Shown here: positions 5,984 to 18,659 of the stretch, in pieces
Layout of the letters: the number at the start of each line of letters is the position of its first letter
Position numbering within the stretch: position 1 is the stretch's first letter
Assembly (NCBI RefSeq): GCF_009914755.1
Contig: NC_060933.1
Length of the DNA stretch: 64,000 nucleotides
Reading direction: 5' to 3' (one strand)
Source of the DNA: the human T2T-CHM13v2.0 reference genome, Homo sapiens
Made by a program: the position numbers and the translations under genes
Notes under the pieces: generated by a model
Databases searched by the model: none
Seen by the model: only the letters and a program-made list of their open reading frames with translations
Told to the model about the DNA's origin: nothing

Positions 5984-6909
5984 GTAAGTCATAGATTTTA
6001 AAAGTACTTCTTCAACATTTTTTCTTTACTAGTGGAAATAAACTATTCTGCCTTTATTTGAAATTATTCCTCAGGAGGACTAAAATCTGAATAGTAATGT
6101 TGATAGTAACCATCTAATATTGGGCCCTTCCTGTATGCTAGACTCTGTGCTATCTACATGCCATATTGTTTTCAGAAATCCTAGAAGCCAGTGGGATCTA
6201 TTTGTATGGGTTTGGCGTAGGTGAGAATTTTCTGTCTCTATCCTGCATAGAACATGTTCAGCTACTCAGTAAATACTGTCGTCTCATAATCAGGGAAACT
6301 GGAATGCTGGAATGGCAGACCCAGGTAGGCCTTAAGATCATCTCATCTGATAACTTACAAAGTGTTTAGCTATGATCTACAGTAAGAAATAGATTTTACA
6401 ACAAAAATACCATGGAACAATCCTTACCCTAACTATGCACTCTAATATTTTCTGCCCTATTCTGTTTTATTCTATTTCATTTTTAAACAATGTGGTCTGT
6501 GATTCAAAAAATTTGATTTTATGACCTATGAATAAGTTGCAATTGCAGTTTGAAGAACACTATAATGGTTTGATAGACCACAGCCTATCTTATATATCTT
6601 GCAGGTGAGGAAACTGAGATGGGTAGTGATTAGCTAAAGCACACAGCTAGTTAGGGGTAGAGCTAAATTAGAAATTTAGGAAGAAAAAACCCTCCTACTT
6701 AACTATGGTAAAGAGAGATTTACTATTCTTTGCAGTACTACTGGATGCCTTTTATTTTTTTCTTGAGATGCTTCACTTTTCAATATCATGTGTAGTGGAG
6801 CGTATAAGGAACTGAGATGGTAGATGGTTTTGAATGGATGAATTGACTAATCACTTTACCTCTTTGACTTCTTTAGAACAAGAGGATTAGATTAAATAAT
6901 AATAACAAC

Positions 6910-12161: not shown

Positions 12162-12238
12162 GTTACAGGAAACAGCAGCAGCGGCAGCAGCAGCAGCAGC
12201 AGCAACAGAAGAAGGTGAAAACACCTATTAAGAAACAG
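12162..12238 (+). CDS. C9orf43: C9orf43 coding exon 9 (polyQ exon, GYRKQQQRQ8KKVKTPIKKQ)
   Basis: caccag acceptor, CAG|gtagag donor, 77 nt, phase 1->0. Confidence 0.88.
12173..12208 (+). repeat. coding CAG repeat (CAG)3 CGG (CAG)6 CAA CAG
   Basis: read directly; encodes Q3-R-Q8. Confidence 0.95.
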
Positions 12239-13939: not shown

Positions 13940-14445
<506 letters not shown>

Positions 14446-14964
14446 TGGTAGGGAGTCCATGGAAATGCTATAATTTAGCATAATACCTCTGGTGGCAGCT
14501 TGGAAGATGTTTGTTTAGGGAAAGGGAGATTGAGAAAAGAATGAATGAATCTACCTAGGGACTAGTTGGGGAAGCAGCTGATGCAAAAGAAACATAAAAC
14601 TAGAGGTTTTTGTTTTTGCTTTGTTTATGGGTACATGAGGGATGGCGCAAGAAGATGAGTCACATTCTGGTAAGAGGAGTATTCATATGCTGTGAAAAAG
14701 TAGATTAGGGTTTCTTGGAGGAATCCTGGGTCTTTTAACACACACTTGAGCGTAATCTCTAATTCTGTAATAGATGAAGTTACAGTCCCAGGTGAGCAGA
14801 ATCTCAAGTAGAACTCAGAAGGTCTAACTACCTTTTACCTGCCATCAAGGTCTTGTCTTTTCCTGGATGCAGAGTCACTTGTAGACTAGGGGTCACCTAG
14901 AAGCCCCCAAATAGGGTATGATATGGTAATAAGAGGAAGATTGAATGGACTCTTTGGTTACTAG

Positions 14965-15041
14965 GTTACAGAACTCTGCCAGGTCAGAACAGTGACATGA
15001 AGCAGCAGCAGCAGATGGAAAAAGGAACCACTTCGAAACAG
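14965..15041 (+). CDS. C9orf43: C9orf43 coding exon 11 ([26 protein letters not shown])
   Basis: ttactag acceptor, CAG|gtgaga donor, 77 nt, phase 1->0. Confidence 0.88.
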
Positions 15042-15072
15042 GTGAGAGTGTACCAAGGCCTCTGCTAGGACC

Positions 15073-15505
15073 CAGTTTCAGTTATCTATTACTATGTAAC
15101 AACCCCAAAGCTTAACCATAATGATTTGCTATTGCTAATGATTCTGTGGGTTGACTGGACAGTTGTTCTTCTCCTGCTTGAGGTCACTTAATGCAGCTGG
15201 GCTGAGGCTGTTGGCCAAGTTGCTGGTTTTCCTTCCTGAGGCCTCTGCATGTGGCTTATTTGGGCTTTTTGATAGCATAGTAGTCTCATGAAAGCAGTTT
15301 CATGAAAGCAGTTTCTTAAGGGATGGGCCTGGAACTAAAACAGTGTTACTTGTGCCACATTTTCTTGGCCAAAGAAGCCACAAGTCCATCCCAGAGAGTA
15401 AATAAGAGAAGAAATAGGCCCTATCTCCTGATGGGAGGAACAGCATGTGCATACCAGAATGGGAGGAATTGTTGGAAGCCATCTTTGGAGGCCGTCTGCC
15501 CTTAG
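15073..15505. mobile_element. MLT1-type LTR
   Basis: cagttatctattactatgtaacaacccc..., ...gccatctttggag MaLR motifs. Confidence 0.65.
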
Positions 15506-15717
15506 TTGACTGCAGGGAATGGGAAGGAGTGGTTCTAGGTTCATTTGGACAGCATGGAGGGCAAAGAACGTGTGGTAAAAGCTTCTCTTCAGTCCCAAGA
15601 GGTGGGTCTCTGGCTCATCTTAGATGTTAATTTCTCCAAGAGAAGCATCTTTTAGAAAAATCCTTTTAGTTTCCTAAAGTCTTGATTCAAATTTCCTTAT
15701 ACCCCAATGAATTTCAG

Positions 15718-15781
15718 GATTCCACGGAGAGACCAAAGATGAACTACTATGACCATGCGGATTTCCACCACAGTGTAAAAA
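15718..15781 (+). CDS. C9orf43: C9orf43 coding exon 12 ([21 protein letters not shown]); non-canonical donor ATAAGT
   Basis: atttcag acceptor; the 64-nt phase 0->1 boundary needed to join the last exon is followed by ATAAGT rather than GTAAGT. Confidence 0.82.
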
Positions 15782-15989
15782 ATAAGTTACTAGAGTAGAG
15801 GAACCTTAGTAAGTGACTGAGGATAGGGAGAGTTGAACCTGTGTTGACCAGGATAGTTTACCTCCCTGAAGGCACAGTTCCTCTATCTCAGAGAAGTCCT
15901 AAAAACACCCCATTTTTCCTTTTCTGTCCTCCATTTGTTGTAGTTGAGAGGAGTTTACAGGTGCAATTAATGACTGCATCTTCTTTTAG

Positions 15990-16204
15990 GTCCTGAATTG
16001 TATGAAACAGAACCCACTAACAAGGACATTAGTGCTCCAGTGGACGCTGTGCCAGAAGCCCAGGCTGCCAGGCAAAAGAAGATCTCCTTTAACTTTTCAG
16101 AAATTATGGCTAGCACAGGCTGGAACTCTGAGCTCAAACTACTTAGGATTCTTCAGGACACTGATGATGAGGATGAGGAGGACCAGTCCTCTGGGGCAGA
16201 GTGA
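15990..16204 (+). CDS. C9orf43: C9orf43 last coding exon (SPELYETEP...[12 protein letters not shown])
   Basis: ttcttttag acceptor, TGA at 16202-16204; exon lengths sum to 1386 nt = 461 aa + stop. Confidence 0.92.
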
Positions 16205-16401
16205 GAAGCCTCTGGAGGAATAGACTGAAGGCATCCCCTGGGGCAGCCGTGTTCCAAAGCGGGATGGCTGGTATCCTGAGGGCAGCAACGTTTCACATAA
16301 GGGCAAGAGGAGAGGGGCTTCTGCTCTCTGGAGCCTTTACCAGGGCCTGAGCTCTGAGCTTAGGGATTCCATTTTCTTTGTTCACCTCTACTTGCCTCTA
16401 A

Positions 16402-16407
16402 AATAAA
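16402..16407 (+). terminator. C9orf43 polyadenylation signal AATAAA (second candidate ATTAAA at 16481-16486)
   Basis: hexamers about 200 and 280 nt after the stop codon, T-rich sequence downstream. Confidence 0.7.
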
Positions 16408-16671
16408 TGTAGGAGAAAAATCCCCAGCCTTTTTAAATTTAGATTATTTCCTTTCCATTAGGGTCAGAATAATTTTGGTGATTAAACACAACTGCTTTTC
16501 AATCAAAAGACTTATTTTCTGTTTCTAGGAGGAAGGGAAAGATGTTTCTTGGTATCTGTTTTCTGGGTCACTCTTATCTCTGAAGTTCTGAAAGGTTTCC
16601 AGTTGTAGGAGGCTGAATTTGGCTCATGGGAGCTGCCATGATGCTCCCTAGATTTTCCTCTCATTCCCTAG

Positions 16672-17130
<459 letters not shown>

Positions 17131-18659
17131 AAAAGCTCTAGTTTCTAAGGAACTGAGTCTGCACAGGAAAGTTTCAGTGATGCTCATAAAGGCTCAGAAT
17201 TTCAGAGTCTGAGAGAACTTCTAACTTGGTTTTGGAGGTTTTTTTTTTTTCATGTTTTAGTCCTTAAAAAGATATAATGTAAAAATTTCAAAATTACGTA
17301 AAAGGAAAGAGAATAATATAATGAAACTTTGATGTATTCAGTATCTTAGATCTGGGCAAGGAAGGCCCTTGGCCCCGTGCTTTAGAAAGTCCTCTGGTGT
17401 TCTGGCTGTGCTGCCCCTCACGGCAGAGAAATCTGCAGAGCCAAGTGGACGTACACCTAGCTGGAGTCTGTGACTCCCCTTTTAGACTTTGTTCCTGGTA
17501 TTTGGAACCCTGGAATTCCCTGCCCAGTGGCCTCTTGCCTACTTCCATGGCTTCTGCAGGCCTCTTTTGTGGGTCCATCTCCCAAGAGTGGACTATCCCA
17601 CCAGTGTGTGTGCTGCTGGGTTCAAGGGGGTAAGAGGAGGGTATTTGGAGAGGGATGTGCCCAGAGCTTGGACAGATAGACTGGGGTATCAGCATTTGTT
17701 GCCTTTCCCAGTAAGGATGGGATCATGGGGATGAGAAGTGAGGGCTGGTTCTTCTAGTGCTGCATGTTAGTGTGGAACCTCAAGGAATCTGTGGATTTTG
17801 AATGAACCTGGCTTTCTAGATCATGAAGGTATACTGGTCAAGGTAGCAAGTTAGAACATGTTTTATTTAACAATTTGTTAGCTTAATTTATAGTTTTTAA
17901 ATGTTCAGACATGGTTAGTAGACCTGTTTTTGTACACTTATCCTGAGTCCTGCAAAACATTAGGACTGTCCAGAGCCATCATTTGGGACAAATTTTAAGG
18001 AGGAAGAATTTAACCCCACAATGTAGAGATCATTAATTTGCAGTCCCATTTTAAAGGTAAGGATAGCAAGGCTCAGAGAGGGGATTTGTCTTGACTGAGC
18101 TCATGAGCTGGGAAGTGGGGCTAAGCTGGAATCTGGGTCTCCTAGTGCTAGGTCAGAGCTCTTTTCATTATTCCAGTCTGCTGTTCTCTCACCTCATTCT
18201 CCAGAAACAATGGTAGGTTATTCATCATCATATTTAACCAGAGTCTGACTTCCTCTCCTTCCTGGTGTGCTGTCTGTCTTCCTCTGTAATTGATTAATGT
18301 GGGTCCCAGGGATGCTGGCTCCATGTTTTTTATAATCAGGAAAGTTGGAAACATATAAAAGTTAATGAGATCCCATGTGTCCATTACCTAAGAATTATCA
18401 ATTTGTGACCAATCTTGTTTCATATACACACACCCCCATCCTGAACAAGGTTATCTGAAGCAAAGGTCATTTTTATCCATAAATATTTCAGCATACACTT
18501 CTAAAAGAAAAGTGTTAAAAATAACTATGAAAATTAATCATAGCTGCTTAATATCAAATATCCAGGCAAATTCAAATTTCCCTCTATTATTAATTTCTTT
18601 TCACAGTTGATACCTTCAAACTAGAATCCAAATAAGGCCCATAAATTGTATTTGGTTGA

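What the first reader, a model, noticed from the sequence alone, without database searches (positions are those of the whole stretch)
15778..15798. C9orf43 penultimate-exon donor is ATAAGT, not GTAAGT (apparent c.1171+1G>A)
Seen: the other 11 coding introns are GT-AG. Joining exon 15718-15781 to 15990 is what the frame needs (AAA A|GT CCT = K-S-P, total 461 aa), yet positions 15782-15787 read ATAAGT, a perfect consensus except for +1. It is not a U12 donor (ATATCC) and the acceptor is AG. Inference: this haplotype carries a splice-disrupting allele. Retaining the 208-nt last intron stops at TAG 15796-15798 and removes the acidic tail. Skipping the exon, or using cryptic AGT|gtaaaa (15774), reads the last exon in another open frame ([12 protein letters not shown]...EKPLEE*, stop at 16223). 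Both outcomes should escape NMD because no downstream junction remains.
Basis: partly seen in the sequence, partly recalled or inferred. Interest (0 to 1): 0.85.

Follow-up and report, generated by a model that had tools for sequence, protein, structure and literature searches.

The report
AT-AG last intron in C9orf43
In this reference genome the last intron of the little-studied, testis-enriched gene C9orf43 begins with AT instead of the near-universal GT, most likely an ordinary inherited splice-breaking allele that costs the protein its conserved tail.

Summary
The RefSeq select transcript joins exon 15718-15781 to 15990. The intron between them starts ATAAGT and ends AG, and the junction cannot be slid. 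The other 11 in-window introns are GT-AG. In a chr9 sample, 1 of 275 select-transcript donors is AT, and it is this one.

It is not a U12 intron, and there is no long duplex that would suggest A-to-I editing. Scored with G at +1, the site is a median-strength donor; as it stands, it scores below every real donor.

The most likely reading is that CHM13 carries a donor +1 A allele and RefSeq's intact 461-aa CDS is projected from transcripts of other genomes. I could not see GRCh38, dbSNP, gnomAD, ape DNA or reads, so this is inferred, not shown.

It missed the best substitute donor, a perfect GTAAGT at 15809 behind the in-frame TAG, and it overrated 15775. The exon's acceptor is the weakest in the gene, which favours skipping.

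Every aberrant outcome loses the conserved DUF4647 C-terminus.

This is an ordinary kind of finding, useful mainly as an annotation caveat.

The parts
15718..15781 (+). Penultimate coding exon of C9orf43 (64 nt, ends in phase 1)
   Evidence: RefSeq and Gnomon exon coordinates; phases and translation.
15698..15717 (+). Acceptor region of that exon (TATACCCCAATGAATTTCAG|gat), the weakest acceptor in the gene
   Evidence: -0.4 bits, below all 266 training acceptors. The gene's other acceptors score 2.0 to 14.6 bits.
15782..15787 (+). Annotated donor, aaa|ATAAGT: A at +1, with the rest matching the U2-type consensus
   Evidence: -0.4 bits as it stands (below all 261 training donors). Scored with G at +1 it reaches 8.6 bits (51st percentile), the same 9-mer as the gene's own intron-3 donor at 5984.
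15782..15989 (+). Last intron (208 nt), AT-AG
   Evidence: No U12 donor at its 5' end and no U12 branch-site match within 65 nt of the 3' end.
15796..15798 (+). In-frame TAG reached if the intron is read through (...[10 protein letters not shown]), giving 395 aa
15809..15814 (+). Best substitute donor, tta|GTAAGT, same phase as the annotated donor but downstream of the TAG
   Evidence: 5.5 bits, 17th percentile, the highest of the 18 GT sites between 15719 and 15984; product of 395 aa.
15775..15780 (+).
   Evidence: 0.5 bits, 1st percentile; product of 465 aa in the other frame.
15970..15989 (+). Acceptor of the last exon (ATGACTGCATCTTCTTTTAG|gtc), ordinary U2 type
   Evidence: 6.7 bits, 19th percentile, with yTnAy branch-like motifs 20 and 33 nt upstream.
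15990..16204 (+). Coding part of the last exon in the annotated frame: 70 residues plus the stop, forming the conserved C-terminus of DUF4647
   Evidence: translation. PF15504 positions 395-457 of 457, 78.1 bits, E 9.4e-22.
15990..16223 (+). Other frame of the last exon (77 codons plus the stop), read after exon skipping or use of the 15775 donor
   Evidence: Gnomon XM_054362632/633 have a CDS ending at 16223. No Pfam family up to E 10.

Best explanation
Position 15782 (T2T-CHM13 chr9:125,627,782) is a genuine A allele at the +1 position of an otherwise ordinary U2-type GT-AG donor. The intact 461-aa CDS that RefSeq draws here is a projection of transcripts from genomes that have G there. With A at +1, the annotated junction should be made poorly or not at all. 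U1 pairing loses one base pair, and the G1-G(-1) contact that positions the 3' splice site for exon ligation is lost. I infer three outcomes. (a) The weakly defined 64-nt exon is skipped, giving a frameshifted 446-aa protein. (b) The GTAAGT at 15809 is used instead. (c) The short last intron is retained. Outcomes (b) and (c) both stop at the TAG at 15796 and give 395 aa. All three remove the conserved C-terminal ~70 residues of the DUF4647 protein, and by position all should escape NMD. What is shown: the letters, the frames, the site scores, the conservation of the tail, and that it is not U12. What is inferred: that G exists in other genomes, and what the spliceosome actually does here.
For: The AT-AG junction is unambiguous. 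It is the only AT among 275 sampled select-transcript donors. With G at +1 the 9-mer scores 8.6 bits, the median of real donors, and is identical to the gene's intron-3 donor; as it stands it scores -0.4, below all 261 training donors. It shows no U12 features. There is no long duplex around the site: no inverted repeat covers 15782, the local fold has z = +0.51 with 69 of 100 shuffles folding at least as well, and P(paired) is 0.31. In the human P complex the 3'SS guanine pairs with G1 of the 5'SS (PMC6461851, passage seen). Parada 2014 states that single mismatches at U2 splice dinucleotides cause dramatic impairment (PMC4176328, passage). The tail is conserved in the family: PF15504 positions 395-457, 78 bits, and the other frame matches nothing. 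Gnomon already models the exon skip. The exon's acceptor is the weakest in the gene. The gene is testis-enriched, with a raised omega on the human branch at uncorrected p = 0.026 only (corrected 0.21) (PMC7020506, passages), and rare splice-donor LoF alleles of it are on record (PMC8253404, passage). It is therefore the sort of gene that tolerates such alleles.
Against: By my own rough, recalled estimate, a haploid genome carries only about one to a few donor +1 G>A alleles in main transcripts. That is not far above the handful of natural U2-like AT-AG introns, so the prior odds are not overwhelming. Natural AT-AG introns do exist: ACTR10 is primate-derived from GT, and C14orf37 is U2-like and edited. 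A second annotated 'A where G is expected', the GT-AA intron 15042-15707 of XM_054362634.1, lies 75 nt away. A single variant does not explain that. My searches found nothing in print about this site, and supplements are closed.
Confidence: 0.72

Rival explanations
1. This is a natural, working U2-type AT-AG intron. A at +1 is the normal human (or primate) state, and the spliceosome makes the annotated junction from it without editing.
For: RefSeq curated transcripts and four Gnomon models use exactly this junction. Parada 2014 reports 184 high-confidence non-canonical U2/U12-like introns, including AT-AG ones without evidence of editing and one (ACTR10) derived recently from GT in primates (PMC4176328). 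The rest of the donor is a perfect consensus, which could compensate.
Against: The AT-AG introns in Sheth 2006's tables are U12-type (11 human AT-AG, among them ACTR10; PMC1557818, Tables 2 and 3). This intron has neither a U12 donor nor a U12 branch site. A1 with a terminal G breaks the G1-G(-1) contact used for exon ligation (PMC6461851). C9orf43 does not appear in the main text of either survey (one search lists neither paper), although their supplementary tables are closed.
Confidence: 0.14
2. Splicing depends on A-to-I editing. ADAR turns the +1 A into inosine, which is read as G and makes a functional 'GT' donor. The same process would turn the AA at 15706-15707 into a usable acceptor.
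For: AT-AG and GT-AA are exactly the two classes that Parada 2014 found converted by editing (Table 2: C14orf37, NUP210 and CRYZL1 are AT-AG; NRK, ADARB1, HOOK3 and COG8 are GT-AA). Both classes occur here on the two sides of one exon.
Against: No inverted repeat covers 15782 or 15707 within 14500-17500. The 331-nt local fold is no more stable than shuffles (z = +0.51). In a 1561-nt fold, P(paired) is 0.09 for 15707 and 0.31 for 15782, and the only helix is 10 A/U-rich base pairs with 16509-16518, just beyond the annotated transcript end at 16508. The masked repeats nearest the exon are 13978-14302 and 16727-17132, and I did not test whether they pair.
Confidence: 0.04
3. This is an assembly or consensus error in CHM13. 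The true base is G, miscalled next to the A run.
For: The site follows a run of five A's (15777-15781), so the A call extends a homopolymer.
Against: The difference would be a substitution, not the length error typical of homopolymers. By recall, the published accuracy of this assembly implies far fewer errors than real variants per base. Nothing else looks wrong locally, and the locus is single copy. Reads are closed, so this was not tested.
Confidence: 0.02

Closest known systems
Essential splice-donor (+1 G>A) loss-of-function alleles of U2-type GT-AG introns
   Same: The donor is a consensus site in every position but +1, with an ordinary AG acceptor and branch-like motifs. The predicted outcomes are the classic ones: skipping, a cryptic donor or retention. 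The site is in the last intron of a gene that appears tolerant of such alleles.
   Different: The G allele was not observed here. The aberrant products should escape NMD, so the result would be a tail-less or tail-swapped protein rather than a null.
ACTR10 AT-AG intron (Parada 2014, PMC4176328; Sheth 2006, PMC1557818)
   Same: AT-AG termini. The AT is described as recently derived from GT and present only in some primates.
   Different: Sheth 2006 lists ACTR10 among U12-type introns (Table 3). The C9orf43 intron lacks a U12 donor and branch site.
Edited U2-like AT-AG intron of C14orf37, and GT-AA introns such as ADARB1 and NRK (Parada 2014, Table 2)
   Same: A stands in the genome where the spliceosome needs G. 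Both classes (AT-AG and GT-AA) are annotated around this exon.
   Different: No duplex that could recruit ADAR was found. RNA evidence was not available.
U2-dependent AT-AC introns (mentioned in Sheth 2006, abstract seen)
   Same: A at +1 with a U2-like donor sequence.
   Different: By recall, those introns end in AC, which restores the first-last nucleotide contact. This one ends in AG.

Membership tests
U2-type GT-AG intron carrying a donor +1 substitution | The donor matches the U2 consensus at all positions other than +1 | tested here: met
   aaa|ATAAGT. Scored with G at +1 it reaches 8.6 bits, the 51st percentile of 261 real chr9 donors, and is identical to the gene's intron-3 donor.
U2-type GT-AG intron carrying a donor +1 substitution | AG acceptor with a pyrimidine tract and a branch-like motif | tested here: met
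   6.7 bits (19th percentile), with yTnAy motifs 20 and 33 nt from the 3' end.
U2-type GT-AG intron carrying a donor +1 substitution | G at +1 in other human haplotypes or in the ancestral sequence | not testable with these tools
   No access to GRCh38, pangenome, ape genomes, dbSNP or gnomAD. The paper searches found no statement about this position.
U2-type GT-AG intron carrying a donor +1 substitution | Aberrant splicing from the A allele | not testable with these tools
   No RNA reads. Gnomon exon-skip models exist, but their evidence and its genotype are unknown.
U12-type intron (AT-AC, AT-AG) | Donor /ATATCCTT (consensus recalled) | tested here: not met
   The intron starts ATAAGTTA. No match with 2 or fewer mismatches at the 5' end.
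U12-type intron (AT-AC, AT-AG) | Branch site TCCTTAAC about 10-30 nt from the 3' end (consensus and distance recalled) | tested here: not met
   the only matches with 2 or fewer mismatches lie 85 and 65 nt from the 3' splice site.
U2-type AT-AC intron | Terminal dinucleotide AC | tested here: not met
   The intron ends in AG at 15988-15989.
A-to-I edited splice site | The edited A lies in a stable, extended duplex | tested here: not met
   One search found no inverted repeat over the site. One search gave z = +0.51. One search gave P(paired) 0.31 and a 10-bp helix only.
A-to-I edited splice site | Consistent A>G mismatch in RNA reads | not testable with these tools
   Reads are closed.
DUF4647 (PF15504) protein family | Match to the Pfam profile over its length, C-terminus included | tested here: met
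   7 of 10 exon-encoded pieces match PF15504 at E <= 1, and 6 of them score above the 27-bit cut-off (one scores 26.7). Matches run from profile position 1 to 457, and the last exon covers 395-457 at 78.1 bits. The 3 pieces without a match are 21-25 aa long.

The most novel reading that the evidence does not exclude
The A at 15782 is not a defect. The reading here is that human testis really makes the 15781/15990 junction from an AT-AG, U2-like intron, either directly or after A-to-I editing of the +1 A. The neighbouring GT-AA intron (15042-15707) would belong to the same phenomenon. The conserved tail of C9orf43 would then depend on a non-canonical or edited splice site flanking one weakly defined 64-nt exon.
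Probability: 0.1. Interest if true: 0.6.

Novelty: new member of a known kind. Interest (0 to 1): 0.25.

Why it matters
If the main reading holds, the T2T-CHM13 reference carries a probable tail-removing allele of C9orf43 while its RefSeq annotation shows an intact 461-aa CDS. Anyone calling variants or predicting proteins on T2T coordinates would then treat the disabling A as the reference state and the functional G as the variant. This is a small, practical annotation caveat and one more example of a loss-of-function allele in a testis-enriched gene of unknown function. It would matter more only if the AT-AG junction proved to be genuinely used. That would add a rare U2-like AT-AG intron, possibly paired with a GT-AA acceptor on the same exon.

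Tried and rejected
U12 intron: rejected. There is no U12 donor and no branch site near the 3' end.

A slid or alternative GT-AG alignment giving the same mRNA: rejected by the letters.

Paralogue or processed pseudogene that could confuse the assembly or record the junction: one search found only the locus itself, although closed regions are not shown.

A-to-I editing: no supporting structure.

Dual coding of the last exon: the other frame is open for 77 codons. So are 50 of 5000 mononucleotide shuffles and 426 of 5000 codon-order shuffles that keep the annotated protein's codons. Together with the lack of any Pfam match, I treat this as chance.

Literature. 'C9orf43' occurs in 21 papers, none of them about this site. 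rs766369889, a rare C9orf43 splice-donor allele, occurs in 1 paper, which gives no position, so I cannot say whether it is this site. A search by approximate hg19/hg38 position prefixes returned 68 papers; the 20 listed were irrelevant. Aliases and identifiers returned 3 irrelevant papers. A search on CHM13 with splice and LoF terms returned 2 papers with nothing on this gene. Supplementary tables are closed. Those of Parada 2014, Shimada 2010 and the TOPMed paper could name this site.

Atlas search with the last-exon peptide: no usable hit.

Not done: I did not run the search for homologous proteins. Only exon-sized references (70 aa or less) could be given, and its length window would then exclude the full-length orthologues. 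As a result, no cross-species alignment of the tail or of the junction codon was made, and conservation rests on the Pfam profile alone.

The site scores come from a plain position-weight matrix built on 261 donors and 266 acceptors from gene-dense chr9 tiles. They are not MaxEntScan or SpliceAI scores.

Full report
WHAT IS THERE

The window letters around the finding read ...cacagtgtaaaaa|ataagttactagagtag..., with the exon ending at 15781. The next exon is preceded by ...cttcttttag|gtcctg at 15989/15990. The RefSeq table for this chromosome shows that the select transcript NM_001278629.2, two further NM records and four Gnomon models all join exon 15718-15781 to 15990-16508. The intron is therefore 15782-15989, 208 nt, with termini AT-AG. 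The junction cannot be moved by a base either way, because 15781 (a) differs from 15989 (g) and 15782 (a) differs from 15990 (g). This mRNA can arise from this DNA only through an AT-AG splice.

Of the 12 introns of the select transcript that lie in the window, 11 are GT-AG and this one is AT-AG. The CDS reaches nucleotide 1171 at 15781, and the product is 461 aa.

HOW UNUSUAL IT IS

I listed the 7349 introns of the 744 RefSeq-select mRNAs on chr9 and fetched the most exon-dense tiles. In those loci plus the window, 275 donors could be read: 272 GT, 2 GC (GOLGA2, SPTAN1) and 1 AT, which is this site. All 279 acceptors are AG.

Across all RefSeq and Gnomon transcripts of C9orf43 and RGS3, 20 distinct introns lie wholly in the window, and 18 are GT-AG. 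The two exceptions both border the same exon: this AT-AG intron, and a GT-AA intron, 15042-15707, used only by Gnomon XM_054362634.1.

WHAT KIND OF INTRON IT IS

A position-weight matrix built from 261 real GT donors (C9orf43's own left out) scores the site at -0.4 bits as it stands, below every training donor. With G scored at +1 it reaches 8.6 bits, the 51st percentile. That 9-mer is identical to the gene's own intron-3 donor, aaa|GTAAGT.

The acceptor is ordinary: 6.7 bits, 19th percentile, with branch-like yTnAy motifs 20 and 33 nt upstream. The intron does not start with the U12 donor. The only loose matches to the U12 branch site lie 65 and 85 nt from the 3' end (both consensus motifs are recalled). 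This matters because the human AT-AG introns tabulated by Sheth et al. 2006 are U12-type (11 of them; PMC1557818, Tables 2 and 3). This one is a U2-type site with a single wrong letter.

EDITING

Parada et al. 2014 (PMC4176328: abstract, sections 16 and 17, and the AT-AG passages) report 184 high-confidence non-canonical U2/U12-like introns. Some AT-AG and GT-AA sites among them are converted to canonical ones by A-to-I editing.

I looked for an ADAR-type duplex and found none:
- No inverted repeat of 14 nt or more within 14500-17500 covers 15782 or 15707.
- The 331-nt local fold is no more stable than shuffles: z = +0.51, with 69 of 100 shuffles folding at least as well.
- In a 1561-nt fold from exon 11 to just past the transcript end, 15707 is paired with probability 0.09 and 15782 with 0.31. 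The latter sits in a 10-bp A/U-rich helix with 16509-16518, just beyond the annotated end at 16508.

Editing is not supported, but without RNA it cannot be excluded.

MOST LIKELY EXPLANATION

CHM13 carries an A allele at the +1 position of an ordinary GT donor. The intact CDS drawn on it is projected from transcripts of other genomes.

The mechanism is established knowledge. In the human post-catalytic spliceosome, the guanine of the 3' splice site pairs with G1 of the 5' splice site (PMC6461851, passages). That paper cites Parker and Siliciano 1993 for this contact; I saw only the reference entry, and the content is recalled. Parada et al. note that single mismatches at U2 splice dinucleotides cause dramatic impairment.

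I could not show that a G allele exists. The literature searches found nothing on this position. One TOPMed paper mentions a rare C9orf43 splice-donor allele, rs766369889, without a position (PMC8253404, passages), and I cannot say whether it is this site.

By my own recalled rough numbers, a haploid genome has only about one to a few such alleles in main transcripts. That is not vastly more than the number of natural U2-like AT-AG introns, so I hold this reading at 0.72 rather than higher.

The gene's character fits the reading. It is testis-enriched and was flagged at the uncorrected threshold only (uncorrected p = 0.026, corrected 0.21) for a raised omega on the human branch (PMC7020506, passages). 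The site is also in the last intron.

CONSEQUENCES (INFERRED)

One search gives the products:
- Annotated junction: 461 aa.
- Exon skipped: 446 aa, stop ending at 16223.
- Donor at 15775: 465 aa, same stop.
- Donor at 15809, or intron retained: 395 aa, ending ...[10 protein letters not shown] at the TAG at 15796-15798.

The exon's own acceptor, TATACCCCAATGAATTTCAG|gat, scores -0.4 bits. That is below all 266 training acceptors and is the weakest in the gene. With its donor disabled, this 64-nt exon is poorly defined on both sides. Gnomon already models its skipping in XM_054362632/633. I rank skipping and use of 15809 as the leading outcomes, followed by retention of the short intron.

WHAT IS LOST

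Scanned exon by exon, 7 of 10 coding pieces match Pfam DUF4647 (PF15504), and 6 of these score above the curated cut-off. The last exon matches profile positions 395-457 of 457 at 78.1 bits, E 9.4e-22. The other frame of the last exon matches nothing up to E 10. The tail is therefore a conserved part of the family, and the frameshifted tail is not.

The openness of the other frame is not remarkable once codon content is kept (426 of 5000 codon-order shuffles).

No orthologue alignment was made.

RIVALS
- A natural working AT-AG intron: 0.14.
- An editing-dependent site: 0.04.
- A consensus error next to the A run: 0.02.

The unexplained GT-AA intron 75 nt upstream is the one observation that a single variant does not cover. 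Scored with G at -1, that acceptor would reach 4.9 bits, better than the annotated acceptor. Three readings remain open: two A/G differences between CHM13 and the genomes that supplied the transcript evidence, editing at both sites, or a Gnomon artefact.

VERDICT

It is most likely an ordinary essential-splice allele in a gene of unknown function, with a useful caveat for the T2T annotation. Interest is 0.25. It is a new member of a known kind, and it may well already be catalogued in variant databases that I could not consult.

Noticed in passing
window 15042-15707 (acceptor 15706-15707; exon 15708-15733): Gnomon XM_054362634.1 uses a GT-AA intron whose exon opens with the stop TGA at 15708-15710. 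This is the second 'A where G is expected' at an annotated splice dinucleotide, 75 nt from the AT donor and on the other side of the same exon. As it stands the acceptor scores -4.2 bits. Scored with G at -1 it reaches 4.9 bits, better than the annotated acceptor at 15718.
   Followed up: partly
window 15698-15717: The acceptor of the penultimate exon is the weakest in C9orf43 and scores below all 266 sampled chr9 acceptors (-0.4 bits). The exon is therefore probably weakly defined whichever donor allele is present.
   Followed up: partly
window 15990-16223: The +1-shifted frame of the last exon is open for 77 codons. It is matched by 50 of 5000 mononucleotide shuffles and by 426 of 5000 codon-order shuffles, and it has no Pfam match. 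I judge this to be chance.
   Followed up: yes
window 12173-12208: A CAG/CAA tract encodes QQQRQQQQQQQQ (residues 293-304). Its last eight codons, (CAG)6 CAA CAG, match the configuration G6A1G1 (Q8) listed for C9orf43 in a survey of polyglutamine length polymorphism, where alleles of 8-9 are reported (PMC1896166, table passage; coordinates).
   Followed up: partly
window 15779-15788 and 16509-16518: A 10-bp A/U-rich complementarity links the donor region to the sequence just past the annotated transcript end at 16508. It is the only predicted pairing of 15782 (probability 0.29).
   Followed up: no
It was neither fetched nor pursued.
   Followed up: no
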